DNA of 30,517 bases from an uncultured Candidatus Saccharibacteria bacterium (GCA_964432465.1 CAYSNI010000069.1:1-30517); one strand, 5' to 3'; shown: positions 10,999 to 26,927, counted from the first letter of the stretch. Numbers and translations are program-made. Notes: a model not told the origin generated them from the sequence alone.

Positions 10999-11069
10999 TC
11001 CGGGATCGTCTAATGGTCGGACGTCAGACTTTGGATCTGAAAATCGGGGTTCGATTCCCTGTCCCGGAA
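10999..11069 (+). tRNA. tRNA-Gln(TTG)
   Basis: Acceptor TCCGGGA/TCCCGGA (U1-A72), D stem GTC/GAC, anticodon stem TCAGA/TCTGA with CT-TTG-GA, T loop TTCGATT; CCA not encoded. Confidence 0.93.
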
Positions 11070-11094
11070 CAAATAAGGTGATATAATAGACTAC

Positions 11095-11346
11095 ATGGAT
11101 CCACTACAATATTATATTCAAAGTTGGGGCGGAGGGATGTTTGCGGGATTTGGGATAGTGATCGGGCTAGCGGTGCTGCTCTGGTCGCTGTACTGGAAGG
11201 CCATGGCACTCTGGCACGCGGTAAAAAGCGGAGAAAAGATCTGGTTCGTCGCGCTCCTCCTTATCAGCATGATGGGCATCGTGGAGATTCTCTATCTCTA
11301 CTTCTTCAGTAAGAATAAACAAAAAGGATTACCGAAGCTGGATTAA
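11095..11346 (+). CDS. small membrane protein (DUF5652-like)
   Basis: LWSLYWKAMALW...WFVALL...GIVEILY pattern; TGaTATAAT 7 nt upstream. Confidence 0.75.
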   Translation: MDPLQYYIQSWGGGMFAGFGIVIGLAVLLWSLYWKAMALWHAVKSGEKIWFVALLLISMMGIVEILYLYFFSKNKQKGLPKLD

Positions 11347-11362
11347 CTCACTAAATATTTGT

Positions 11363-11767
11363 ATGAAAAAACCACTACTTATTTTAGGATTGGCGTTGGT
11401 GCTAGTGGGAATTGTCACAATATTCTCCGGCGCTCCAGCGGCGGATACTCTTCAACTAGCCGACACCCAAACGGCCTACTCCGATGTGGGGATGGCAAAG
11501 GAGCTCAGTATCTCTGCGAAAAACTACGCATTCGAACCGAAAATCATTATGGTCAACAAAGGTGACCACGTCAGAATCATGCTTACCAATGATGACGGCT
11601 TCCACGACCTTCGGATCGATGAATTTAACGTCGCCACGAAGAAACTCAATACTGGCGGACAAGACATTGTTGAGTTCGTCGCTGATAAAACCGGAACATT
11701 TGAATATTACTGCTCCATTGGAAGTCATCGCCTGATGGGTATGAAAGGAACGCTGATCGTTCAGTAG
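11363..11767 (+). CDS. exported cupredoxin-domain protein
   Basis: Signal peptide; type-1 copper ligands H (FHDL) and C..H..M (YYCSIGSHRLMGM). Confidence 0.85.
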   Translation: MKKPLLILGLALVLVGIVTIFSGAPAADTLQLADTQTAYSDVGMAKELSISAKNYAFEPKIIMVNKGDHVRIMLTNDDGFHDLRIDEFNVATKKLNTGGQDIVEFVADKTGTFEYYCSIGSHRLMGMKGTLIVQ

Positions 11768-11785
11768 TTCGGCTACGCTCACTAC
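11764..11785 (+). repeat. short REP-like hairpin
   Basis: GTAG-TTCGGCTACGCTCA-CTAC; related motif at 15559-15573. Confidence 0.4.
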
Positions 11786-11825
11786 AAATAACGAAATTAA
11801 AAACTGACAGATAACTAATAACAAC

Positions 11826-12290
11826 ATGCTAAAACAAGGCGAGAAGGCTCCAACTTTTTCTCTACCGGACCAAAGCGGTAAAGTTCACAAACTTTCCGAC
11901 TATGAGGGCCAGTGGGTGCTTTTATATTTTTATCCTAAAGACGACACACCGGGATGCACCAAGGAAGCCTGCTCAATCCGCGACAGCTGGCCGGAGTTTA
12001 AAAAACTGAAAGCCGTCGTCCTCGGCGTAAGCGTGGACTCAGAAAAAAGCCACGCCAAGTTCGTGGAAAAATACGAGCTTCCGTTCATTTTGCTCGCCGA
12101 TGACCAGAAGGAATTGGTAGAAAAATACGGTGTTTGGGCGAAAAAGAAATTCATGGGCCGAGAATACATGGGCACGCTCCGCACTTCCTTCTTAATTAAT
12201 CCGAAAGGAAAAATCGCGAAGATATACGAAAAAGTTAAGCCGGAAATCCACGTTCAAGAAGTGCTGACGGATCTGAAGAAGATGAAATAA
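11826..12290 (+). CDS. bcp: thioredoxin-dependent peroxiredoxin Bcp
   Basis: YFYPKDDTPGCTKEAC, GVSVDS, RTSFLI. Confidence 0.93.
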   Translation: MLKQGEKAPTFSLPDQSGKVHKLSDYEGQWVLLYFYPKDDTPGCTKEACSIRDSWPEFKKLKAVVLGVSVDSEKSHAKFVEKYELPFILLADDQKELVEKYGVWAKKKFMGREYMGTLRTSFLINPKGKIAKIYEKVKPEIHVQEVLTDLKKMK

Positions 12291-16522: not shown

Positions 16523-17494
16523 ATGCTTATCGACGATGTCATTATCAGAATAGCGGCGGGCAACGGCGGCAAAGGCGCCGTCGCTTTTGAGAAGAACAAA
16601 TTCGCGATCGGCCCAACCGGCGCCCGCGGTGGCGATGGCGGCAACATCTATTTTGAGGCGGTGTCTGATATCTCCGCGCTGAGTAAATTTCGTCATAAAA
16701 AAGAATGGGCGGCAACTAACGGGCAGGATGGCCGGAGCCAGTACCGTGACGGTAAAGTTGGCTCTGATCTGGTTCTGAAAGTCCCGGCAGGCACCGTAAT
16801 CCATAATCTCGACACTCGCTACAGTGAAGAATTAGTAAAAGGCGGCGACCGCATCCTAGTCGCTAAAGGCGGCCGCGGCGGTAAGGGCAACTTTTTCTTC
16901 CGCTCACCGATCAATACTAGCCCGGAAGAGTTTGAATTTGGTCAACCGGGCGATAAATTCAACTTGCGCTTAGAACTTAAATTAATCGCTGATGTCGGCT
17001 TAGTTGGTCTGCCAAACGCCGGAAAATCTAGCCTGATCAATGAACTCACGAAAGCCCAAGTCAAGGTAGCGAACTACCCCTTTACCACACTGGAACCGAA
17101 CCTAGGCACCTATGAGAATCTGATCATCGCGGATATTCCTGGCTTGATCGAGGGAGCCTCAAAGGGTAAGGGACTCGGCACTAAATTCCTCCGTCATATT
17201 GAACGCACGCGAGTAATTTTCCATTTGGTTTCCGCTGAATCGGAAAAACCAGTTAAGGATTATAAGACGATTAGAAAAGAGCTGGGCGCTCATAATCCGG
17301 AACTTTTAGAAAAAATTGAGCACATCCTCATCAGCAAGAGCGATATGGGCAACCCTAAAAAACTGACGAAGGAGATTGCCGCGCTAAAAAAACTAAATTC
17401 AAAAGTATTGCCTATCTCCATTCACGACTGGGATAGCCTTGAGAAAGTACGGAAGATTCTGGATAAGATCGCGAAAGAGAAGGGCGGCCGCTAG
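16523..17494 (+). CDS. obg: GTPase Obg (no C-terminal OCT domain)
   Basis: Gly-rich Obg fold, VGLPNAGKSS, YPFTTLEPNLG, DIPGLIEGAS, FLRHIER. Confidence 0.96.
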   Translation: MLIDDVIIRIAAGNGGKGAVAFEKNKFAIGPTGARGGDGGNIYFEAVSDISALSKFRHKKEWAATNGQDGRSQYRDGKVGSDLVLKVPAGTVIHNLDTRYSEELVKGGDRILVAKGGRGGKGNFFFRSPINTSPEEFEFGQPGDKFNLRLELKLIADVGLVGLPNAGKSSLINELTKAQVKVANYPFTTLEPNLGTYENLIIADIPGLIEGASKGKGLGTKFLRHIERTRVIFHLVSAESEKPVKDYKTIRKELGAHNPELLEKIEHILISKSDMGNPKKLTKEIAALKKLNSKVLPISIHDWDSLEKVRKILDKIAKEKGGR

Positions 17495-18081
17495 CGGTAC
17501 AGCTTATTCTTTCGGATGTACTCCGCCACGCTTTTCGCCAAAAATGCATCCGCCTTGCCGCCCGCGGCGATTATCTCTCTTATTTTCGTGCTCGAAATAT
17601 CGCGTGCGGATATATCACGCGGGATTACCGTGCTATGCGGCGGAAGCTCCTCCGGCATTTCAAATCCCGGCCGTTCGAGAATTATAAATTTTCCTGTTTC
17701 GAAAAGCTCCTTTCCGTTCACCCAGGTATTTTTAATGGTCGCGGCCGAATCTGCTCCCACGACGAAACAAAATTCGGAATCCGGATAATACGTTTCCAGT
17801 TCCTGCTTGGTGGCATAGGTTGTGGTAAGTCCCGGACGCTTTATTTCGAGATCCGACACGCTCACTGGAATTTTCGGTAACGGAAATAATTCGCGAACCA
17901 TTGCCCGGAGCATTTCCACGCGGTGCATACCGTCGGTTCCGACAACCTTGTCCCTGCGGTCAGCCGATGGCATCACCCATATTTCATCAGCCGAAAAGTT
18001 ATCGAGGACCAGTTCGATCGCTTTCGCGTGTCCGATATGGGGCGGATTGAAAGCGCCGCCGAAGATCACGATTTTTTCCAT
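17491..18081 (-). CDS. nadD: nicotinate-nucleotide adenylyltransferase
   Basis: FGGAFNPPHIGH, FVVGADS, ISSTKIR. Confidence 0.93.
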   Translation of the reverse strand: MEKIVIFGGAFNPPHIGHAKAIELVLDNFSADEIWVMPSADRRDKVVGTDGMHRVEMLRAMVRELFPLPKIPVSVSDLEIKRPGLTTTYATKQELETYYPDSEFCFVVGADSAATIKNTWVNGKELFETGKFIILERPGFEMPEELPPHSTVIPRDISARDISSTKIREIIAAGGKADAFLAKSVAEYIRKNKLYR

Positions 18082-18090
18082 ACAATAATA

Positions 18091-18114
18091 ATAGCGCGGT
18101 TTTACCCGCGCTAT
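18091..18114. terminator. hairpin between nadA and nadD
   Basis: ATAGCGCGG/CCGCGCTAT 9-bp stem; weak U tract. Confidence 0.45.
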
Positions 18115-18121
18115 AAAGTGG

Positions 18122-19279
18122 TTACGTAATCAACATCATACGCTCGATGCCGAGCTTAGCCTTCTCGGCGATTGAACGCTGGATATGGACCGTAGTATCG
18201 GTTTCAAGAGGATTCTTGGGATCACAGCAGTCATCGCAAAGCAGGATCTCCAGGCGGTCCGTATTCAGCGAATCAAGCAGCTTTTCGAAGATATTCGCCT
18301 TCATGAAGCCGCACTCCGCCCGCTGCGAAACCGGGATGAAGGTTTTCTCCGGCAGTTCTTTCCGCAGCCGGTACACCATTCCCTTCTCGGTCGCCACGAT
18401 GAATTTCTTCACCGGCGAGATTCGAGCCCGCTCGACCATCTGCTCGGTCGAAAGAAAGAAAGCGCGCTGGTGAGGAATGATCCCCTGCTGGATTTTCAGC
18501 ATGCAGAGCGAGGCGCATCCACATTCCGGATGAATCATCAGCTCCGCGTCAGGGTTCTCAATGAGCGCCACATCAGCCGCGTCCATGCCGATCATCTCGT
18601 GCACGTAACAGCAGGCGCTCCATTCACCCTTCCTCTTTTCATATACCTCGATCAGGTCCTCCGGTACCCCCTGCTCCACCGCCTTTGCCTTCATGACGTA
18701 GCCAAGGAACTTATCAGGGAGAACAAGGATCTTCTTACCGGGATACATCTTCGCCGCGGCGACAATGATCTTGTCGGTATTCCGGGAGGTGGAGATGAAG
18801 TCACTAATCGACTTCGTGTAGGCGTCGCTGTTGATGTAGGTCACCAGCACGCCGCCGGGGTTGTTGCGCTTCCACTCTTCGATCCATTCATGATCGGTAC
18901 CGAAAACAAGCGAACAGCCGAGCGCCGCGGGCTTGTCGGGTACGAATACCCGTGTCGCGTCGCCGTTGATGATCTTCGCCGTCGCTCCCATGAAGTACAC
19001 GCTTTGAAAATCAATCCGTTCGGCGCCGATCGCCTTCGCGTGAAGGCTTAGTCCGAGCGAATCCCCGACTTTATCGGCAATCTCATGAAACTCCGGATAG
19101 AGATAGTTATGAGCGAAGATCTTTGCTTTCTTTTCTTTGGCTCTCGCCTGGATCTCGATCGCCATCTCGGCAAGTCCGTAACATCTTTCAAGCGTGTACC
19201 GCCCCGGATACAAATCTCCGGCGTACTGGTTGAAAAGCGTATACCAACGCATGGCAAGATGATCAACGACTGTATTCAC
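18122..19279 (-). CDS. nadA: quinolinate synthase A
   Basis: AHNY, GDSL, YIN, HPEC, FIVATE; three 4Fe-4S Cys (GCSL, CYVH, CGFMK); GTG start with SD AAGGAG. Confidence 0.92.
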   Translation of the reverse strand: MNTVVDHLAMRWYTLFNQYAGDLYPGRYTLERCYGLAEMAIEIQARAKEKKAKIFAHNYLYPEFHEIADKVGDSLGLSLHAKAIGAERIDFQSVYFMGATAKIINGDATRVFVPDKPAALGCSLVFGTDHEWIEEWKRNNPGGVLVTYINSDAYTKSISDFISTSRNTDKIIVAAAKMYPGKKILVLPDKFLGYVMKAKAVEQGVPEDLIEVYEKRKGEWSACCYVHEMIGMDAADVALIENPDAELMIHPECGCASLCMLKIQQGIIPHQRAFFLSTEQMVERARISPVKKFIVATEKGMVYRLRKELPEKTFIPVSQRAECGFMKANIFEKLLDSLNTDRLEILLCDDCCDPKNPLETDTTVHIQRSIAEKAKLGIERMMLIT

Positions 19280-19295
19280 ATACGCACTCCTTAAT

Positions 19296-19336
19296 GTTCT
19301 GGCCGTATTTTACCATTATTACGGCAAATAAAAAAG
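19296..19336 (-). promoter_or_regulatory. internal promoter block A (extended -10 TGGTAAAAT) for nadA
   Basis: 19/20 identical to 20536-20555; directly after a terminator. Confidence 0.65.
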
Positions 19337-19354
19337 AGGCGGTTAAGCCTCTTT
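19333..19354 (-). terminator. intrinsic terminator after NDT-NUDIX gene
   Basis: AAAGAGGC/GCCTCTTT stem, T run on minus strand. Confidence 0.7.
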
Positions 19355-20506
19355 AAGCGCTGAAAGAATCATGCCGATCGTACTCCAATCCACAAGATCT
19401 TTCGCGAAGATCTCGCGGATCGTGCAGACCTGCGTATATACCCGTTCGCCGGTCGGATCGCTCATATCGGCGCCATGCACCTCGCCGACCTGACTCTTAA
19501 ACCAGTTCATTTCTTCATCGGTCAGCTCCGCGGAAAAAAGATTGCAACAGTGGGTCAGAAGGGTCGCGGCAAGCTGCCGGGGGCCATGAGACTTGAGACG
19601 CTCCTTGCCGATCACGAAACCGGTTTCCTCATGGACTTCTTCCACCGCCACGTCGAGCGGATCCACGGCGGGATTCGGATTCGATCCGGCGGGAAGCTCC
19701 CAGACGAAACATTCATTGTTGCGCGCCGAGCTACGGAACTCCCGTCCGATCACAACTTCGTAATCAAGCAGAGTCGGTCCCCGGCGATACAGCACCACCG
19801 CGGAAGTATCCAGACGACCGATCACCGGTTCGTTGGTCTTCATGCGACCTTCGCCGAAAATCCTAATCCGGGGATGAATCATCCATATATAGACGCGTTC
19901 CTTCCTGTCGCCGACACGGAACGTCGCTTTAAGTTCAACTCCTTCAAGGACATGGCCCGCACGATGCTGCGCCTGATACCAGGACTGGAACGCCTTCGTT
20001 CTCCAGACAAAAAGCGGCACCTGTCGGGCTCCGCCCGAACGATGTGAACCGTCACCGAGGAATCTCAGGGCAGCGTCGACCGTCCCTTCAAGCGTATTCG
20101 CCTGCAGGACAAATTCTTTGCCGGCACAATGCTTCATGTAGCCTGTCTTTGGCGCATCATCCGGACAGCCGAATACCATCCAGCCCGAATGCCACAGCCA
20201 GCCGAATTCGATATTAGTGGTGAACGCGGGCATCTTTTCAAGCTCGCGGGGAACCCAGAACAGCGCACAATCGGAATGATTAAACGCGCTATGTTCCCAC
20301 TCGATCTGGCCGTCCTCGCCGCACTGGGCGGAACCGGCCCGGTCTTCCGGGACAAACACCACGCCGTCATAGCCCCGCTCTTTCAGAATCTCCAGAGCAC
20401 GCGGCCGCCATGACCCGACATCGTTCCTGCGGGGCGTCGGCCCCGCCAAAAAAATAGACCGGCTGAACTGCTCCGGCATCGGCTCGCCCGCGTAGACCAT
20501 CTGCAT
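19343..20506 (-). CDS. nucleoside 2-deoxyribosyltransferase-like domain fused to NUDIX hydrolase
   Basis: N-term IFLAGPTPR, VFVPEDR, QIEWE, FWVPR, TTNIEFG; C-term WELPAGS..VAVEEVHEETGF; SD AAGGAGG. Confidence 0.85.
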   Translation of the reverse strand: MQMVYAGEPMPEQFSRSIFLAGPTPRRNDVGSWRPRALEILKERGYDGVVFVPEDRAGSAQCGEDGQIEWEHSAFNHSDCALFWVPRELEKMPAFTTNIEFGWLWHSGWMVFGCPDDAPKTGYMKHCAGKEFVLQANTLEGTVDAALRFLGDGSHRSGGARQVPLFVWRTKAFQSWYQAQHRAGHVLEGVELKATFRVGDRKERVYIWMIHPRIRIFGEGRMKTNEPVIGRLDTSAVVLYRRGPTLLDYEVVIGREFRSSARNNECFVWELPAGSNPNPAVDPLDVAVEEVHEETGFVIGKERLKSHGPRQLAATLLTHCCNLFSAELTDEEMNWFKSQVGEVHGADMSDPTGERVYTQVCTIREIFAKDLVDWSTIGMILSALKEA

Positions 20507-20535
20507 GCATTCCTCCTTCTCTTTCAGACTGAAAA

Positions 20536-20575
20536 GTTCTGGGCGTATTTTACCAGAAAAATCGGGAAATAAAAA
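20536..20575 (-). promoter_or_regulatory. internal promoter block B (extended -10 TGGTAAAAT) for NDT-NUDIX gene
   Basis: Near-copy of block A. Confidence 0.65.
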
Positions 20576-20601
20576 GGCCTTCCAACAATGTTGGAGGGCC
20601 T
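20575..20601 (-). terminator. intrinsic terminator after pncB
   Basis: AGGCCTTCCAACA/TGTTGGAGGGCCT stem, T run on minus strand. Confidence 0.7.
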
Positions 20602-20605
20602 GTGT

Positions 20606-21850
20606 TTAAACCGGGATCAAACCGATCACCTGCCGATAGCGGGTGACCTCGTGGAGGTCGCCCATCGCCTTGGCGGGGTCATCGCTGAGCTTCACCGTGG
20701 AACGTCCGTTGACACGCGACGCTTTCACGACGATCTCCGCGGTGGGAAGTCCGAGATCGTTGGTAAGGTTGGTACCGACACCGAACGTGTGTCCGAGTCT
20801 GCCCTGGAAATGCGCGTGGAGCGCCACCATCCGGGCGGGATCCAGCTTATCGCTGAACACTGTCAGTTTATCTTTCGGATTCTCGTCGTAGCGGCGATAC
20901 CAGTTGATCATCTTCTCGCCATAGCTGAATGGATCCCCGGAATCTTGCCGGGTCCCTTTCCAGAGCTTCGCGACATCCTGATTCGCCGCGCGCAGAAAGA
21001 AGTCGGTGGTAAAGGTATCGGTCAGCGCGATCGAAAGACCACGGCCGTACATACTCCACCAGCCGTTCAGAACTTCGCGCTGAGCCTCAATCAGCACATC
21101 TTCGCTCCGGGTATCGGGATGCGCCTTCGCAAACGCGAGCGCGGCGATGACCATCGGAAGTTCGTGCGCCGACGTACCCATAGGTATGAGATCAACGTCC
21201 TTCGCGAACAGCACATTGGACGTGCCGAGCAGGATACCGGGTAGCTCCTCCCTCATCACCTCAACGACGTACTGCTGCCACGCCCGGCTAAAACGCCGAC
21301 GAGTGCCGAAGTCGCTGAACGTGAGGAAAGGCTGATGCCGGAATACGCAGATCTTCTCAAGGAGATTTTGAACACCCCGCGCGAAGACCGCCTCCTGCTC
21401 GAAGCGGGACTTTTTCCGCAAGAGTGCCCGGGAATAAAGTTCGCAGATGATCGACATTGCCAGCGTTTCCCAATACATGACCTTCGGCCACGGACCGGTA
21501 AACTCCAGACGGTAATCGTCGCCCTCTCTGATCAGTTTGTAGGGAGGAAGTTCGAGATCCCGCAAGAACTGGAGATAATCATCCTGGAACATCTTGTCGC
21601 CGTATTCGTGCGTGCCCCGCAGATAATGATATTCGCTGTTTCTCAGTCTGAGCTTCATCACATGATCAAGCTCGCGTCTCAAATCCTCTTCCGAAAAATA
21701 CTGCGCGAAAGGGATCCGTGCGCGATTGATCAGACTGAAAGTGACTTCCACATCACGATAGCGCCGGAATACCAGCTGGCCCATCGTGAATTTGTAGAAA
21801 TCGGTATCGAGCAAAGAGTTGATGATCGGTTCGTCGGAAAGCAGTTTCAA
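20606..21850 (-). CDS. pncB: nicotinate phosphoribosyltransferase
   Basis: LLDTDFYKFTM, DFGTRRRFS, GTSNV, GTSAHE, RQDSGDP, FGVGTNLTND, VKLSD; TTG start overlapping pncA stop. Confidence 0.95.
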   Translation of the reverse strand: MKLLSDEPIINSLLDTDFYKFTMGQLVFRRYRDVEVTFSLINRARIPFAQYFSEEDLRRELDHVMKLRLRNSEYHYLRGTHEYGDKMFQDDYLQFLRDLELPPYKLIREGDDYRLEFTGPWPKVMYWETLAMSIICELYSRALLRKKSRFEQEAVFARGVQNLLEKICVFRHQPFLTFSDFGTRRRFSRAWQQYVVEVMREELPGILLGTSNVLFAKDVDLIPMGTSAHELPMVIAALAFAKAHPDTRSEDVLIEAQREVLNGWWSMYGRGLSIALTDTFTTDFFLRAANQDVAKLWKGTRQDSGDPFSYGEKMINWYRRYDENPKDKLTVFSDKLDPARMVALHAHFQGRLGHTFGVGTNLTNDLGLPTAEIVVKASRVNGRSTVKLSDDPAKAMGDLHEVTRYRQVIGLIPV

Positions 21851-22485
21851 GAAACGCCTCCTTCCAAGACTTCATCAGTGCTGGAAATTACCACGCCGGC
21901 GGTCTCCATTTCAACGAGTGCGTCTTCGCCGTCGCTGGGATTGATATTGACCGCGCGGCAGGCGTCTTCGAGTAGGATGGCCTGTTGGCCATACTTCACC
22001 GCGTCGAGCGCCGTCGCCTTCACGCAATGATCTGTCGCAAGGCCGCCGATGTACATCTTCCTCACTTTCAGCTGGACCAGGCGATCGTTGAGCGAGGTGC
22101 CGAAGTGATGACCATCGAAAGCCGAGTAGCCGTCATCTATCGTACCTTCACCCTTAGTGATGATGTACAGCCAGCGATATGCGCTGGCTCCGGGTACCTG
22201 CAGATCCCTATGAAACTCGGCTCCGCGAGTGTACTGCACCGCGTGCTCCGGCCATTTGCCGCCATACAACGCGAAATGCTTCGTCACCGGCGGATGCCAG
22301 TCCCTCGAGATCATGATCGCCCAGTTATTCTGCATGGCATGAAGGATCATGCGATTCAGCGGAGCCATCACCTGGTCGCCTTCCACGACCGCAAGCGAGC
22401 CGCCCGGGCAAAAACAGTTCTGCGGATCCACGATCATCAATGCCGTATCGGACTGAAAGACCAGCGCCGGCCCTGAATTGAACAT
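21847..22485 (-). CDS. pncA: nicotinamidase
   Basis: IVDPQNCF, RDWH, WPEH, TKG, YSAF, GLATDHCV; Asp-Lys-Cys triad and metal ligands present. Confidence 0.92.
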   Translation of the reverse strand: MFNSGPALVFQSDTALMIVDPQNCFCPGGSLAVVEGDQVMAPLNRMILHAMQNNWAIMISRDWHPPVTKHFALYGGKWPEHAVQYTRGAEFHRDLQVPGASAYRWLYIITKGEGTIDDGYSAFDGHHFGTSLNDRLVQLKVRKMYIGGLATDHCVKATALDAVKYGQQAILLEDACRAVNINPSDGEDALVEMETAGVVISSTDEVLEGGVS

Positions 22486-22494
22486 GCAGCCTCC

Positions 22495-23370
22495 TTAAAG
22501 GATCGTTGCCCCTTCGTACTGCCAATCGAACTTGAGCTTGCCGTCGGGGAAGAAGATAAGATTTCTCATCTCTTCCGCGTTCGGCTGTACCGTCAGGCAT
22601 TCGTTCAGGCAGAGATTCTGCCCAAAGAGGTCAAAGACCTCCGCGCCATGCGCGAGCACCCGAAGACGGCACCCTGAATTAGTGACGAATTCCCGTATCT
22701 CTTTTCTTTGTTCAACTTTGAGATGATGCTCATTCGTCCATTCCCAGGCCTCGCGGTTCGACATCACCACCGGTTTGTTCACCGGGGTAAATGTGAGCTG
22801 GTCCACCTGGTGCGTCTTCGCGAACGCCACAAGATTCTTCAGCTTTTCAGCACTATCCACGAATCCGTTTGCGCCGATGCATGTCAGACGGACTGAAAGC
22901 CCTATTTCGTGAAGTTTCTTGATCAGTTCCGGAAGGTCGATATATTCCTTCTTATAAGGAAGGTAGACTTCGCGATTCTTCTCCGGTTCATAATGCACGA
23001 TAGAAATCGCGATTGTCGTCATACCAAGATTGCACCAGCTCCTCAGATAAGGATCATATTTCTCCGACCGCTCCGCGAATTTGATCCCGTTCGTCTGGAT
23101 CTCAATCAGTGGAAATTCATATCTCCGCATCTCTTCAAGATATCGGGTGATCTGATCCGGAAACAGCGTCGGTTCACCTTTTCCCGTGAACATCGCCGTA
23201 ATCGCGTTCTGAGCCTTCGCCAACCTGCACGCGATATGAAATCGGTGCCAATTGACCGTCGGTTCCTCGAGTAGCACGCCTTGCGGCGGGGTCATCTTGG
23301 ATACACAAAACGGACACCTCGCGTTACACGCCTCGCTGCCCGCCAGAATGCTGAATGTCTCGACTTTCAA
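22495..23370 (-). CDS. radical SAM enzyme of unknown function
   Basis: CNARCPFC (CX3CX2C), GKGEPTL, QTNG; 291 aa, no SPASM Cys set; TTG start with SD GAGGAGG. Confidence 0.9.
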   Translation of the reverse strand: MKVETFSILAGSEACNARCPFCVSKMTPPQGVLLEEPTVNWHRFHIACRLAKAQNAITAMFTGKGEPTLFPDQITRYLEEMRRYEFPLIEIQTNGIKFAERSEKYDPYLRSWCNLGMTTIAISIVHYEPEKNREVYLPYKKEYIDLPELIKKLHEIGLSVRLTCIGANGFVDSAEKLKNLVAFAKTHQVDQLTFTPVNKPVVMSNREAWEWTNEHHLKVEQRKEIREFVTNSGCRLRVLAHGAEVFDLFGQNLCLNECLTVQPNAEEMRNLIFFPDGKLKFDWQYEGATIL

Positions 23371-23424
23371 GGCGCCTCCTCTTAATACAATTCAGTTATC
23401 AAAGATCGACCATAGAGTAACACT

Positions 23425-24105
23425 TTAAAAGAATCTTTTCAACTCTATGGGCCTCTGCTCAACAAATACATAGAGCTGAGCAGGCCTGTGCTGGGCGCCG
23501 CCGAGCTTTTGACTCGTCGGCTTTATCAGTCCGAGCGCCACAAATTTCTTCCGAAAGTTTCTTTTATCGAGCTTCTTTCCCCAAATCGCTTCATAGGTTG
23601 CCTGGAGCTGACCAAGCGTGAACTTTTTAGGCAGGAGCGAAAAGACGGCGTTGGTATACTCCAACTTAGAACGTAAACGCCGGAGCGCATAGTTGACGAT
23701 CCTCTTGTGATCGAACGCAAGCAGCGGCAGCTTATTCACCGGGAGCAATGTCGGCGCCTGCAGATCCTTGGCGGATTCAAAGACAAGCTTCTCTCTGGGC
23801 ATCAGCGCGAAATAGCTCACCGAGACCGCCGGACCGCGGGGATCCCGTCCGGAGCTGTCGAACGTATACAGCTGCTCGATATACGCGTTCTTCACGCCGG
23901 TTTTGTCGGCAAGCACGCGAAGCGCGCCCTTCTCGGTCGTTTCGTTCTGAAAAAGAAAACCTCCCGGCAATGCCCACACGCCCTCAAACGGCGGGCGGGC
24001 GCGGCGGATCAGGAGCACTTTTAATTCGCCTTGATCGATCGTCAGAATTACGACGTCTACCGTCACGGCCGGAGAGAAGTAAAATTTGTCGGTATGTTTC
24101 TTCAT
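23425..24105 (-). CDS. nrtR: NrtR family transcriptional regulator (NUDIX-like + winged helix)
   Basis: VTVDVVI, WALPGGF, degenerate NUDIX box (RVLADK), EQLYTF..GRDPR, LAFDH, FTLGQLQ, DKRNFRKK, RPAQLY; start ATG 24105. Confidence 0.9.
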   Translation of the reverse strand: MKKHTDKFYFSPAVTVDVVILTIDQGELKVLLIRRARPPFEGVWALPGGFLFQNETTEKGALRVLADKTGVKNAYIEQLYTFDSSGRDPRGPAVSVSYFALMPREKLVFESAKDLQAPTLLPVNKLPLLAFDHKRIVNYALRRLRSKLEYTNAVFSLLPKKFTLGQLQATYEAIWGKKLDKRNFRKKFVALGLIKPTSQKLGGAQHRPAQLYVFVEQRPIELKRFF

Positions 24106-24109
24106 ATTA

Positions 24110-26056
24110 TTATTCGAGTTCTTTAAGCCAGGCATCCACGGCGACATCCGACGGCATGCGCCAATCGCCCCTCGGTGAAAGCGCTACCGACCCAACTTTT
24201 GGACCGTCCGACATTACCGAGCGCTTCCACTGGTTGCGGAAAAATCGCCCGACAAAAAGCCTCAACCATTTTTTAATTACCGCGCGGGGATATTTCTTTC
24301 CGAACGCCTGCTCCGCGAGAAACAGAATCTTTTTCGGCGCGCTCGCCCATCGCACGAAATGGTAGAGAAAAAAATCATGTAATTCATACGGGCCGATAAT
24401 ATCCTCGGTTTTCTGATCAATATCCTTTTTGCCCGCCCGCACAAGCTCCGGGGAGATCGGCGTCGCAATGATATCGGCAAGCACTTTCTTTGCCTTGCTG
24501 AAATCCTTTTGTGACCGCACCCACTGCACCAGATACTTCACCAGCGTCTTTGGAATGCCCGAATTCACGCAATAGTGCGAAATATGGTCACCGGTAAAGG
24601 TATTCCAGCCGAGTGCTATCTCCGAAAGATCACCCGTGCCTACCACGAGGCCGTTGATCTGGTTCGATTTATTCATAAGTACCAGCGTTCGATAGCGGGC
24701 CTGCACGTTTTCAAAGGTAATATCCTGCGTCTTTCCATTGTGTCCGATGTCTTTGAGATTCTGCGAGGCGCCTTCGGTAATATCAATAGTTTCCAGCGTC
24801 ACGCCCAGCGCTTCCGCAAGTTTGATCGCGTTGGACTTGGTACGCTTCGTAGTCGCAAATCCCGGCATGGTGTAGGCATGAATATTGTTACGAGGCAGAC
24901 CAAGTAATTCACAGGCCCGCACGGCTACCAGGAGCGCGAGCGTTGAATCCAGTCCGCCGGAAAGTCCGATGATCGGTTTTTCTTTATCCGCGTGCTCCAT
25001 GCGCTTCGCAAGTCCCGCCGCCTGAATCGCAAAGATTTCCTGCGCGCGCTTATCACGCTCGGATTCGTTGGAGGGTACAAAAGGATTCTGCGTGAGAGAA
25101 CGTTCCAGCTTCTCCGGGCTCGCGATGTCGGTATCAAATGAAATATTCCTGAACTCTTTCCTGGGCAACTCGTGCACGCCTTCCCCAAAGCTCGTCATAC
25201 GTTCCCGATCGGTCTTTATATGATGAAGGTCGAGATCGGCGTAGATGATCTGGCTTTCTCTGTCGAATCGCTCAGATTCTTTGAGAAGACCCCCGTTTTC
25301 CCCGATCAGGGCGTGACCGCTGAATACCACGTCAGTAGTGGATTCATGTACGCCACAGGACGCGTAGATGTAGCCAGCCACCGTACGGGCTGACTGCTGA
25401 GAAACCAGCTCGCGACGGTAATCCGCCTTCCCGATTAATTCGTTTGAAGCCGAAAGATTCGCGAGCACCGTCGCTCCCGCAACCGCCTTGAATGAACTGG
25501 GCGGCATCGGCATCCAAACGTCCTCGCAAATTTCCACACCAAGCGCGAATGCCGGCAGCTTTTCGGACTGAAAAATAAGATCCGCGCCGATCGGTACTTT
25601 CTTCCCGAGAATAGTTATTTCTTTCGCCAAAAGATCGCGCGAAGACGCGAACCACCGTTCCTCGTAAAATTCCTTGTATCCCGGGATGTAGGTCTTGGGC
25701 ACGAGACCAAGAATCTTCCCACCGGAAATTACCGCCGCCATATTGAATAATTTCCCCTCGCATGCGAGCGGGAGTCCCACTAATACCACCGCTTTTACGG
25801 TTTTGGAGGCATCCACGATCTCCTGTAAACTGATAAGAGATTCCTCCTGGAGCAGTTCCTGATGGAAAAGATCCCCGAGCGTATATCCAGTAATTGAAAG
25901 CTCAGGGAATACGATAAGTCCGGTCTGCTTCGCCGCCGCGACCTTTATCAGCTTAATGATCTCCTTCCCGTTCTCTTCCGGCTTCCCAAGCCAAAGCCTG
26001 GGTACCACCGCCGCTACCCTCATCAATCCAAATCTGGACAATTGGATAGTGTTCAT
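24110..26056 (-). CDS. nadE: glutamine-dependent NAD+ synthetase
   Basis: Nitrilase domain E-K-C (FPEL, VPK, EICED) plus SGGLDS, ENVQAR, GTGDLSE, ISPEL, IIGPYELHDFF. Confidence 0.96.
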   Translation of the reverse strand: MNTIQLSRFGLMRVAAVVPRLWLGKPEENGKEIIKLIKVAAAKQTGLIVFPELSITGYTLGDLFHQELLQEESLISLQEIVDASKTVKAVVLVGLPLACEGKLFNMAAVISGGKILGLVPKTYIPGYKEFYEERWFASSRDLLAKEITILGKKVPIGADLIFQSEKLPAFALGVEICEDVWMPMPPSSFKAVAGATVLANLSASNELIGKADYRRELVSQQSARTVAGYIYASCGVHESTTDVVFSGHALIGENGGLLKESERFDRESQIIYADLDLHHIKTDRERMTSFGEGVHELPRKEFRNISFDTDIASPEKLERSLTQNPFVPSNESERDKRAQEIFAIQAAGLAKRMEHADKEKPIIGLSGGLDSTLALLVAVRACELLGLPRNNIHAYTMPGFATTKRTKSNAIKLAEALGVTLETIDITEGASQNLKDIGHNGKTQDITFENVQARYRTLVLMNKSNQINGLVVGTGDLSEIALGWNTFTGDHISHYCVNSGIPKTLVKYLVQWVRSQKDFSKAKKVLADIIATPISPELVRAGKKDIDQKTEDIIGPYELHDFFLYHFVRWASAPKKILFLAEQAFGKKYPRAVIKKWLRLFVGRFFRNQWKRSVMSDGPKVGSVALSPRGDWRMPSDVAVDAWLKELE

Positions 26057-26065
26057 AATACACTA
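26047..26065. promoter_or_regulatory. candidate NrtR operator
   Basis: TAGTGT-TCATAAT-ACACTA, perfect 6-bp arms with GT-N7-AC core, overlapping the nadE ATG. Confidence 0.72.
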
Positions 26066-26094
26066 ACAGTAACGTATGATAAAAAAATCGTCAA
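26066..26094 (-). promoter_or_regulatory. promoter of nadE-nrtR operon
   Basis: TTGACG-17 nt-TACTGT, 9 nt before ATG; -35 lies inside the nadK CDS. Confidence 0.6.
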
Positions 26095-26927
26095 CCCCTT
26101 CCAGCGTCAATATCTTCTACCGTCCGGATAACCCGGCGGCAAAAGCCTGGGCGGAAAAGATCACGCTCTGGCTTCATAAGCACTATCCGAAAGTAACCAC
26201 GACCGAGAAAAGACCAGACGCGGTTATCGTCCTCGGCGGCGACGGTACCATTCTCGAAGCCGCCAGCCGCTATCAGCGTTCAAATCCCGTCATCCTCGGA
26301 CTAAACCTCGGCCATGTTGGATTCTTGGCGTCCGTCCGTGAAGAGGCGAAATTTATTAATGCACTGGCTAAATTTTTCTCCGGTAAATACTGGCTGGTGG
26401 ACAGGATGATGCTGCAGGCCAGCGTGTGGCGAAAAGGAAAGAATATTTTTAAAACAAATTCACTGAATGACGTCGCTATCCAGAATCCGATCGGTATGGT
26501 GGAGCTGGAAGCCAGCATCGAAGACCACCCCCTGCAATATATCCGTGGCACCGGCGTGCTCGTGGCTACCGCCACCGGCTCCACCGCGCATAATCTTTCC
26601 GCCCATGGCCCGATCGTGATGCCCAATATCGAATGCCTGATCCTGACCGAACTTTTTGATCACAGCATTCCCACTCCCAGTCTGATCATCGATAAAGACC
26701 GGATAATTTCAATGAAGATCCTGTTCTTCCGGAAACGCGGCATTCTTTCGGTCAGTAAGACCGGCAAACCGGCTGATCTTCTTCTGATATCGGGAGACAG
26801 CACCGTCTTCCCTCTTGAGATCGGCGATATCGTGAAGATTCGGCGCTCAAAAATGCTCGTCCGGTTCGCGGAATTGGAAAAGCACTATTTCTTTAAGAGC
26901 TTGCAGGAGAAGTTTTCGTTTCGGTAA
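26076..26927 (+). CDS. nadK: NAD kinase family protein
   Basis: LGGDGTIL, GLNLGHVGFL, LND, TATGSTAHNLSAHGP. Confidence 0.88.
   Translation: MIKKSSTPSSVNIFYRPDNPAAKAWAEKITLWLHKHYPKVTTTEKRPDAVIVLGGDGTILEAASRYQRSNPVILGLNLGHVGFLASVREEAKFINALAKFFSGKYWLVDRMMLQASVWRKGKNIFKTNSLNDVAIQNPIGMVELEASIEDHPLQYIRGTGVLVATATGSTAHNLSAHGPIVMPNIECLILTELFDHSIPTPSLIIDKDRIISMKILFFRKRGILSVSKTGKPADLLLISGDSTVFPLEIGDIVKIRRSKMLVRFAELEKHYFFKSLQEKFSFR

What the first reader, a model, noticed from the sequence alone, without database searches (positions are those of the whole stretch)
18122..19279. Intact NadA without its usual partners NadB and NadC
Seen: all three cluster cysteines and the AHNY, GDS, YIN and HPEC residues are present, so it is not a decaying gene, yet no aspartate oxidase/dehydrogenase or quinolinate PRTase is in the island. 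Established: NadA needs unstable iminoaspartate and its product needs NadC. Inference: either partners lie elsewhere, or the radical SAM protein supplies the substrate and this PncB (same type II PRTase fold as NadC) accepts quinolinate, which would be a non-canonical de novo route.
Basis: partly seen in the sequence, partly recalled or inferred. Interest (0 to 1): 0.7.

Follow-up and report, generated by a model that had tools for sequence, protein, structure and literature searches.

The report
Quinolinate synthase lacking its usual partner genes

Summary
Window 18122-19279 (-) encodes an intact NadA: three cluster cysteines and every catalytic motif are present. No window ORF resembles NadB, NadX or NadC. 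A 68%-identical homologue lies in a canonical nadA-nadB-nadC operon, so the ~390-aa, cysteine-rich subfamily is a genuine quinolinate synthase.

The window is from a Patescibacteria (CPR) genome. It carries an NAD block: nadK | nadE-nrtR-rSAM-pncA-pncB | NDT-Nudix | nadA | nadD, with an NrtR-type operator.

In seven related CPR loci a MoaA/viperin-like radical SAM gene sits in the NAD cluster with nadA. This holds across two NadA subfamilies and three PncB types, and the gene often has the same operator in front. None of these loci has nadB or nadC within 10 kb. Other CPR lineages do carry canonical nadC, or nadB plus nadC, beside nadA.

I favour, weakly, a partly non-canonical de novo branch with the radical SAM protein as candidate partner. 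Canonical partners elsewhere in the genome is nearly as likely, and the tools could not test it. PncB using quinolinate is disfavoured.

The parts
18122..19279 (-). nadA: quinolinate synthase, ~390-aa Cys-rich subfamily. Its own transcription unit.
   Evidence: Orthologue in a canonical nadABC operon.
17491..18081 (-). nadD: nicotinate-mononucleotide adenylyltransferase.
   Evidence: TIGR00482 127 bits vs cut-off 112. nadA-nadD adjacency recurs in 7 loci.
19343..20506 (-). 387-aa two-domain protein: N-terminal nucleoside 2-deoxyribosyltransferase-like domain plus C-terminal ADP-ribose-pyrophosphatase-like Nudix domain.
   Evidence: Also present in L014, L031, L098.
20606..21850 (-). pncB: nicotinate phosphoribosyltransferase.
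   Evidence: NF003704 419 bits vs 379; TIGR01514 333 vs 270. PDB hits are NAPRTases only.
21847..22485 (-). pncA: nicotinamidase. Overlaps pncB by 4 bases.
22495..23370 (-). Radical SAM protein, 291 aa, CNARCPFC motif, MoaA/viperin-like fold, no specific family.
23425..24147 (-). nrtR: Nudix-related transcriptional regulator. A later start giving 226 aa was called in the Logan copy.
   Evidence: PF21906 and PF00293.
24110..26056 (-). nadE: glutamine-dependent NAD synthetase.
   Evidence: NF002730 881 bits.
26076..26927 (+). nadK: NAD kinase, divergent from nadE.
26047..26065 (.). Perfect palindrome TAGTGT-N7-ACACTA between nadK and nadE. Putative NrtR operator with the GT-N7-AC core.
   Evidence: Core consensus from PMC2330246.
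19296..19315 (-). Promoter-like 20-mer TGGTAAAATACGGCCAGAAC (extended -10) just upstream of nadA.
20536..20555 (-). Near-identical 20-mer TGGTAAAATACGCCCAGAAC upstream of the NDT-Nudix gene.
19333..19354 (-). Terminator-like hairpin between the NDT-Nudix gene and nadA.
20581..20595 (-). Terminator-like hairpin after pncB.
18091..18114 (-). Terminator-like hairpin between nadA and nadD.

Best explanation
The ORF is a genuine, working quinolinate synthase. It condenses iminoaspartate with dihydroxyacetone phosphate on a [4Fe-4S] cluster to give quinolinate. It sits as its own transcription unit inside an NrtR-controlled NAD gene block of a Patescibacteria genome: nadK | nadE-nrtR-rSAM-pncA-pncB | NDT-Nudix | nadA | nadD. 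This much is shown. That its product feeds NaMN to NadD, NadE and NadK is inferred from gene adjacency and shared regulation. NadB/NadX and NadC are absent from the window and from +-10 kb around seven related CPR NAD clusters. Each of those clusters carries one MoaA/viperin-like radical SAM gene, and in three of them it lies behind the same operator. My inference is that in this lineage at least one step flanking NadA is done by a non-canonical enzyme, with the radical SAM protein as prime candidate. The role I favour for it is SAM-driven oxidation of L-aspartate to iminoaspartate, independent of O2 and fumarate, by analogy with ThiH versus ThiO or HemN versus HemF. I do not think PncB takes quinolinate. 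How quinolinate reaches NaMN stays open: a NadC elsewhere in the genome, or an unknown enzyme.
For: NadA is intact and orthologous to operon-encoded NadA. rSAM and nadA lie in one NAD cluster in the window, L004, L014, L025, L031, L032 and L098, with at least five gene orders. In L098 the rSAM (65% identical) accompanies a different NadA subfamily (369 aa, NF006878 298 > 294) and a different PncB type. Window PncB is only 35% identical to L004 PncB, whereas NadA is 72% and rSAM 68% identical. The exact form of the palindrome TAGTGT-N7-ACACTA occurs 10 times in 0.95 Mb against 0.06 expected. Every copy, including the one-mismatch copies, lies at an NAD gene. It stands directly before rSAM in L025, in the nadK|rSAM gap in L004 (one mismatch), and before pnuC-nadR-rSAM in L098. 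A symmetric variant lies 12 nt before a solo rSAM in L013. Its core matches the published NrtR core GT-N7-AC. No NadB or NadC appears in any rSAM-type locus at E <= 1e-3. None of the 120 best CPR-type NadC hits lies on a contig that carries the rSAM.
Against: Only +-10 kb around each locus could be read, so canonical nadB/nadX/nadC may lie elsewhere, as they do in E. coli. Canonical nadC lies next to the same NadA subfamily in other CPR-like loci (L046, L094, L095). A full nadB|nadA-nadC-nrtR cluster exists in Gottesmanbacteria. The radical SAM family also occurs as a solo gene with no NAD genes nearby in four genomes (five loci, L009-L013). Its nearest folds, MoaA and viperin, act on nucleotides rather than amino acids, and it has no auxiliary cluster. 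The apparent mutual exclusion of rSAM and nadC is not significant (Fisher p = 0.25). No biochemistry exists.
Confidence: 0.42

Rival explanations
1. Ordinary case. NadA works in the canonical aspartate pathway, and nadB (or nadX) and nadC are encoded elsewhere in the genome. The radical SAM gene is an NrtR-regulon passenger with another role, NAD-related or not.
For: The same NadA subfamily sits in canonical nadABC operons (L002, L016, L017). It sits beside nadC in CPR-like loci. nadA is solo in many genomes. CPR can carry canonical NadB and NadC. The rSAM is solo in four genomes (five loci, L009-L013). Catalytic residues are unchanged.
Against: Seven clusters of up to 12 NAD genes, which include even GAPDH, pnuC and nadR, never include nadB or nadC. 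No NadC from the 120 best CPR-type hits lies on the 412-kb, 186-kb, 116-kb or 54-kb contigs that carry these clusters.
Confidence: 0.38
2. The missing step is NadC. Quinolinate reaches the NaMN/NaAD pool without a quinolinate PRTase. One route would be rSAM-catalysed decarboxylation to nicotinate followed by PncB. Another would be base exchange by the NDT-like domain of the NDT-Nudix protein, with the released nicotinamide recycled by PncA and PncB.
For: nadA lies directly upstream of nadD (which consumes NaMN) in 7 loci with no nadC between. pncA-pncB are in 6 of the 7 rSAM loci, and the NDT-Nudix gene is in 4. rSAM and nadC were never seen together. A DAO/Mqo-like flavoprotein that could cover the NadB step is in the L098 cluster and near nadA in L008.
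Against: There is no chemical precedent for either reaction. The NDT-Nudix gene is absent from L004 and L032. The exclusion statistic is not significant. The flavoprotein could equally be a glycerol-3-phosphate oxidase.
Confidence: 0.1
3. One reading: this PncB itself phosphoribosylates quinolinate.
For: PncB shares the type II PRTase fold with NadC (established knowledge). pncB lies near nadA in most of these clusters.
Against: PncB passes the NAPRTase equivalog cut-offs. Its PDB matches are NAPRTases only, with no Pfam QRPTase hit. Its gene overlaps pncA by 4 bases, which suggests translational coupling. Three divergent PncB types accompany the rSAM-nadA pair. E. coli nadC mutants are niacin auxotrophs despite an E. 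coli-type PncB (established knowledge).
Confidence: 0.04
4. Orphan NadA. The pathway is incomplete in this reduced genome, and NadA is either a recently acquired passenger of a transferred NAD block or part of a pathway shared with a host.
For: The NAD block has GC3 of 0.60-0.70 against 0.37-0.58 in the flanks, which suggests lateral origin. CPR bacteria are episymbionts with patchy pathways (general knowledge).
Against: NadA is retained with all catalytic residues in many divergent CPR loci. It has its own NrtR operator in L004, L019, L022, L025 and L098. Iminoaspartate is too unstable to be exchanged between cells (established knowledge).
Confidence: 0.06

Closest known systems
Quinolinate synthase NadA (Pfam PF02445; solved T. 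maritima and P. horikoshii enzymes)
   Same: Same fold-defining motifs, three [4Fe-4S] cysteines and substrate-binding residues. Subfamily members occur in nadA-nadB-nadC operons.
   Different: About 80 residues longer. It has an N-terminal extension, insertions after HPEC and before the second cluster cysteine, and seven extra invariant cysteines (C33, C253, C255, C259, C348, C351, C352). It falls below the NCBIfam equivalog cut-offs. No nadB or nadC lies nearby here.
NrtR regulons of NAD metabolism (Rodionov et al. 2008, PMC2330246)
   Same: A Nudix plus winged-helix regulator sits inside the NAD cluster. Palindromic operators with a GT-N7-AC core lie upstream of nadE, nadK, pncAB and nadA.
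   Different: The CPR regulon also contains a radical SAM gene and an NDT-Nudix gene. The word 'radical' does not occur in that paper, and paper searches found nothing linking a radical SAM enzyme to NrtR or nadA.
MoaA and viperin-type radical SAM enzymes
   Same: N-terminal CxxxCxxC motif and partial TIM-barrel fold. Best structural matches are MoaA (TM 0.72) and viperin-like enzymes (TM 0.66). There are weak pVip and MoaA HMM hits.
   Different: It scores far below every family cut-off (MoaA 34 vs 284; viperin 30 vs 180). It has no MoaA-type auxiliary-cluster cysteines. Its substrate is unknown.
Oxidase versus radical SAM pairs for one step (ThiO/ThiH, HemF/HemN)
   Same: This is an analogy only. 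A flavin oxidase step (NadB) could be replaced by a radical SAM enzyme in anaerobes.
   Different: This rests on memory and inference. There is no sequence relationship, and no activity has been shown.

Membership tests
Quinolinate synthase NadA | NadA domain above the Pfam gathering score | tested here: met
   PF02445, 224.9 bits vs 27.
Quinolinate synthase NadA | Score above the NCBIfam equivalog cut-offs | tested here: not met
   NF006878 234 vs 294; TIGR00550 195 vs 263. This is attributed to subfamily insertions. The 369-aa NadA of L098 passes.
Quinolinate synthase NadA | Three cysteines ligating the [4Fe-4S] cluster, plus catalytic and substrate-binding motifs | tested here: met
   C122, C224, C323 and the AHNY, GDS, YINS, TS, HPEC, ST motifs align to solved NadA and are invariant.
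Quinolinate synthase NadA | Orthologues linked to nadB and nadC | tested here: met
   L002, L016 and L017 (65-68% identical) are nadA-nadB-nadC operons.
Quinolinate synthase NadA | Quinolinate formation from iminoaspartate plus DHAP | not testable with these tools
   Requires an enzyme assay or complementation of a nadA mutant.
Canonical aspartate de novo NAD pathway (NadB/NadX-NadA-NadC) | Aspartate oxidase or dehydrogenase encoded | tested here: not met
   None in the window or within +-10 kb of seven rSAM-type loci. The rest of the genome could not be read.
Canonical aspartate de novo NAD pathway (NadB/NadX-NadA-NadC) | Quinolinate phosphoribosyltransferase encoded | tested here: not met
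   None in the window or within +-10 kb of seven rSAM-type loci. The rest of the genome could not be read.
NrtR regulon | NrtR protein with Nudix and winged-helix domains | tested here: met
   PF00293 and PF21906.
NrtR regulon | Palindromic operator with a GT-N7-AC core upstream of NAD genes | tested here: met
   Window 26047-26065 and equivalent sites in L004, L014, L019, L022, L025, L031, L044 and L098. Ten exact copies against 0.06 expected.
NrtR regulon | ADP-ribose-responsive binding of NrtR to the operator | not testable with these tools
   Needs a gel-shift assay.
MoaA / viperin radical SAM families | Family-level HMM score | tested here: not met
   MoaA 34.5 vs 284; viperin_w_prok 30 vs 180.
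MoaA / viperin radical SAM families | Radical SAM CxxxCxxC motif and core fold | tested here: met
   C15, C19 and C22 are invariant. Fold matches.
Nicotinate phosphoribosyltransferase PncB | Equivalog HMM score | tested here: met
   NF003704 419 vs 379; TIGR01514 333 vs 270.
   PncB hits only the NAPRTase families and only NAPRTase structures.

The most novel reading that the evidence does not exclude
A lineage of Patescibacteria makes NAD de novo without NadB and/or NadC. A MoaA/viperin-like radical SAM enzyme, co-regulated by NrtR and possibly helped by the NDT-Nudix protein, supplies a step flanking quinolinate synthase. That step would be either anaerobic formation of iminoaspartate or PRPP-independent entry of quinolinate into the nucleotide pool.
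Probability: 0.3. Interest if true: 0.85.

Novelty: new variant of a known kind. Interest (0 to 1): 0.55.

Why it matters
The aspartate route to NAD (NadB or NadX, then NadA, then NadC) is treated as fixed in bacteria. A conserved radical SAM member of the NAD regulon that travels with nadA where nadB and nadC are missing would be a concrete candidate for a non-orthologous replacement in a universal cofactor pathway. It would bear on whether CPR bacteria really depend on others for NAD. Even if the partners turn out to lie elsewhere, three things remain new, at least as far as the searches of the held paper library go: the CPR NrtR operator, the radical SAM gene as a member of that regulon, and a large family of NDT-Nudix fusion proteins.

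Tried and rejected
- The look-up of P0077 was not on record.
- Rfam found no nadA/NAD+ riboswitch in the window or in 7 subfamily loci, only a tRNA. An earlier call exceeded the size limit.
- The sequence search of the rSAM against the PDB was uninformative. PADLOC gave only a weak pVip hit, so I do not read the gene as a defence viperin.
- AlphaFold of the NDT-Nudix protein from a single sequence failed (pLDDT 37).
- The 149-aa and 161-aa ORFs near nadD in L004 and the window are unrelated.
- Paper searches found nothing on CPR NadA-only genomes or on a radical SAM enzyme tied to iminoaspartate, NrtR or nadA.
- Sequencing runs that hold the locus are all metagenomes, so read mapping cannot show that nadB/nadC are absent genome-wide.
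- The idea that this NadA makes nicotinate directly was rejected, because the residues that bind both carboxylates are invariant.
- The apparent exclusivity of rSAM and nadC is not significant. In an NJ tree the rSAM-linked NadAs are not a clade.

Full report
**1. The observation**

Window 18122-19279 (-) is a 385-codon ORF with a GTG start eight bases after an AAGGAG. It matches Pfam NadA at E 1.6e-66. It aligns to the solved Thermotoga and Pyrococcus enzymes at E ~2e-34.

In an alignment of 30 relatives, the three cluster cysteines (C122, C224, C323) and all these residues are invariant. The gene is therefore intact. It falls below NCBIfam's two NadA equivalog cut-offs. I attribute this to the N-terminal extension and two insertions seen against the solved enzymes.

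All plausible ORFs of the window were scanned against Pfam or NCBIfam. They were also searched locally with NadB and NadC from three lineages. None resembles NadB, NadX or NadC.

**2. What surrounds it**

The window is a Patescibacteria (CPR) contig. The closest NadA and radical SAM homologues are named Patescibacteria, Parcubacteria, Levybacteria and Sungbacteria. The flanks carry typical CPR genes.

The minus strand holds nadE-nrtR-rSAM-pncA-pncB. Short gaps or overlaps separate these genes, and a terminator-like hairpin follows pncB. Next comes a 387-aa NDT-like/Nudix gene, then nadA, then nadD. nadK is divergent from nadE.

The NDT-Nudix gene and nadA each follow a hairpin and a nearly identical 20-mer, TGGTAAAATACG[G/C]CCAGAAC. 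This is an extended -10 element: 2 matches against 0 expected. GC3 of the nine NAD genes is 0.58-0.70 (0.60-0.70 without nadD) against 0.37-0.58 in the flanks, so the block is compositionally distinct.

**3. Is this NadA a real quinolinate synthase?**

A 68%-identical homologue on a 3.6-Mb contig lies in a nadA-nadB-nadC operon (L002). Two further operons of the same subfamily were found (L016, L017). In a neighbour-joining tree these operon-borne NadAs are nested among the CPR ones. Catalytic residues do not differ between contexts. So the subfamily is a genuine NadA, and nothing suggests a changed substrate or product.

**4. Where are the partners in relatives?**

Loci came from the protein look-ups and from a metagenome scan. 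Three patterns appear among CPR-like loci.

- (a) In seven loci nadA shares an NAD cluster with the same 291-aa radical SAM gene. These are the window, L004 (Parcubacteria GCA_016180525.1), L014, L025, L031, L032 and L098, with at least five different gene orders. None has NadB or NadC within 10 kb at E <= 1e-3.
- (b) In L046, L094 and L095 a canonical nadC lies convergent to a subfamily nadA. Contig-length matches indicate the same for P0245/P0081, P0246/P0078, P0247/P0057, P0251/P0054 and P0249/P0058, two of which (P0245, P0247) are the L094 and L095 contigs. No rSAM lies nearby.
- (c) Gottesmanbacteria carry nadB | nadA-nadC-nrtR with a short-type NadA.

Canonical partners therefore exist in the CPR gene pool. 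Many other genomes have a solo nadA.

**5. The radical SAM gene**

It has the CxxxCxxC motif, no auxiliary-cluster cysteines, and no specific family assignment. An AlphaFold model (pLDDT 84) is closest to MoaA (TM 0.72) and viperin-like enzymes (TM 0.66).

Its link to NAD metabolism rests on three observations.

- Cluster membership in seven loci.
- In L098 it accompanies a different NadA subfamily (369 aa, above the equivalog cut-off) and a different PncB type (PRK09243-like). The window and L004 PncBs share only 35% identity, against 72% for NadA and 68% for rSAM. The linkage is therefore not just one inherited arrangement.
- The shared operator. The exact palindrome TAGTGT-N7-ACACTA occurs 10 times in 0.95 Mb of non-redundant fetched DNA, against 0.06 expected. 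Every copy, including those with one mismatch, lies at an NAD gene. In the window it lies at 26047-26065, between nadK and nadE. Elsewhere it lies upstream of nadA (L004, L019, L022, L025, L098) and of pncA (L014, L019, L031). It lies directly upstream of rSAM in L025, in the nadK|rSAM gap of L004, and upstream of a pnuC-nadR-rSAM operon in L098. Its core matches the published NrtR core GT-N7-AC (PMC2330246). A symmetric variant lies 12 nt before a solo rSAM in L013.

Against a specific tie to nadA: family members at 57-64% identity stand alone in four other genomes, five loci L009-L013.

**6. Weighing the readings**

- This PncB passes the NAPRTase equivalog cut-offs and matches only NAPRTase structures.
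- Its gene overlaps pncA by 4 bases.
- Three PncB types accompany the rSAM-nadA pair.
- E. coli nadC mutants need niacin although they have this type of PncB (established knowledge).

Two readings remain close.

- The canonical genes may lie elsewhere. This is common for nadA, and only +-10 kb per locus could be read.
- The lineage may complete the branch with non-canonical enzymes. Clusters of up to twelve NAD genes never include nadB or nadC. Moreover, none of the 120 best CPR-type NadC hits lies on the 412-kb, 186-kb, 116-kb or 54-kb contigs that carry these clusters.

I give the non-canonical reading a slight edge, 0.42 against 0.38. Within it I favour the radical SAM enzyme as an O2- and fumarate-independent source of iminoaspartate. 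That role is inference by analogy. The enzyme's nucleotide-type fold relatives argue against it, and the apparent exclusion of rSAM and nadC is not significant (p = 0.25).

**7. Novelty**

NadA itself is a new member of a known family. The NrtR-regulated CPR cluster carries a radical SAM gene and an NDT-Nudix gene and lacks nadB and nadC. I found no description of such a cluster in the library, so I rate it a new variant of a known kind.

The decisive test is an HMM scan of the complete MAGs for NadB, NadX and NadC. It could not be run here.

Noticed in passing
window 18122-19279 (residues C33, C253, C255, C259, C348, C351, C352): The ~390-aa NadA subfamily has seven invariant cysteines beyond the three cluster ligands (HPECGCAxxC and CDDCC motifs). 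They are conserved in both operon-borne and CPR members. This may be a second metal or Fe-S site; I recall no such site described for NadA.
   Followed up: partly
window 19343-20506 (-): The 387-aa fusion of a nucleoside 2-deoxyribosyltransferase-like domain with an ADP-ribose-pyrophosphatase-like Nudix domain belongs to a large full-length family: 395 50%-identity clusters at E <= 1e-30, with 40/40 members hitting Nuc_deoxyri_tr2 and 20/40 hitting NUDIX. It sits in NAD clusters of L014, L031 and L098 too. It is plausibly an NAD/ADP-ribose/NMN recycling enzyme feeding PncA.
   Followed up: partly
window 19296-19315 and 20536-20555 (-): Near-identical 20-mers TGGTAAAATACG[G/C]CCAGAAC (extended -10 plus a conserved downstream CGGxCAG) precede nadA and the NDT-Nudix gene, each after a terminator-like hairpin. 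Similar CGG(N)CAG elements follow the -10 box of nadA in L014 and L031.
   Followed up: partly
window 26047-26065; L004, L014, L019, L022, L025, L031, L044, L098: A CPR NrtR-type operator TAGTGTA-N5-TACACTA defines a regulon of nadK, nadE, pncAB, nadA, pnuC-nadR, the NDT-Nudix gene and the radical SAM gene. Variant palindromes TATTGTA-N5-TACAATA/TACACTT occur before a solo rSAM (L013 9971-9989) and in the nadB|nadA gap of Gottesmanbacteria (L096 8897-8915).
   Followed up: yes
L098 6815-8188; L008 14452-15804: A 450-457-aa DAO-family flavoprotein (weak hits to L-2-hydroxyglutarate oxidase, malate:quinone oxidoreductase and type-2 glycerol-3-phosphate oxidase) lies inside the L098 NAD cluster and about 3 kb from nadA in an Uhrbacteria contig (312 bits between the two). 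It could supply iminoaspartate or oxaloacetate, or DHAP. It is not present in the window.
   Followed up: partly
L008 11180-13131: In Uhrbacteria, nadA is followed by a GFO/IDH/MocA-type NAD-binding oxidoreductase and a 340-aa protein with no family hit. This may be another non-canonical partner set.
   Followed up: no
window 17491-26927: The nine NAD genes have GC3 of 0.58-0.70 (0.60-0.70 without nadD) against 0.37-0.58 for the flanking housekeeping genes. This suggests the block was acquired laterally or is under different codon constraints.
   Followed up: partly
window 10999-12290: A tRNA gene is followed by DUF5652, a cupredoxin-like protein and an AhpC/TSA peroxiredoxin. These are oxidative-stress or copper proteins in a presumed fermentative CPR genome.
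   Followed up: no
L098 5727-6752 and 8311-9952: The largest NAD cluster also contains a type I GAPDH, a PnuC transporter and a NadR-like NMN adenylyltransferase/ribosylnicotinamide kinase. A nicotinamide riboside route therefore coexists with nadA and pncAB there.
   Followed up: no
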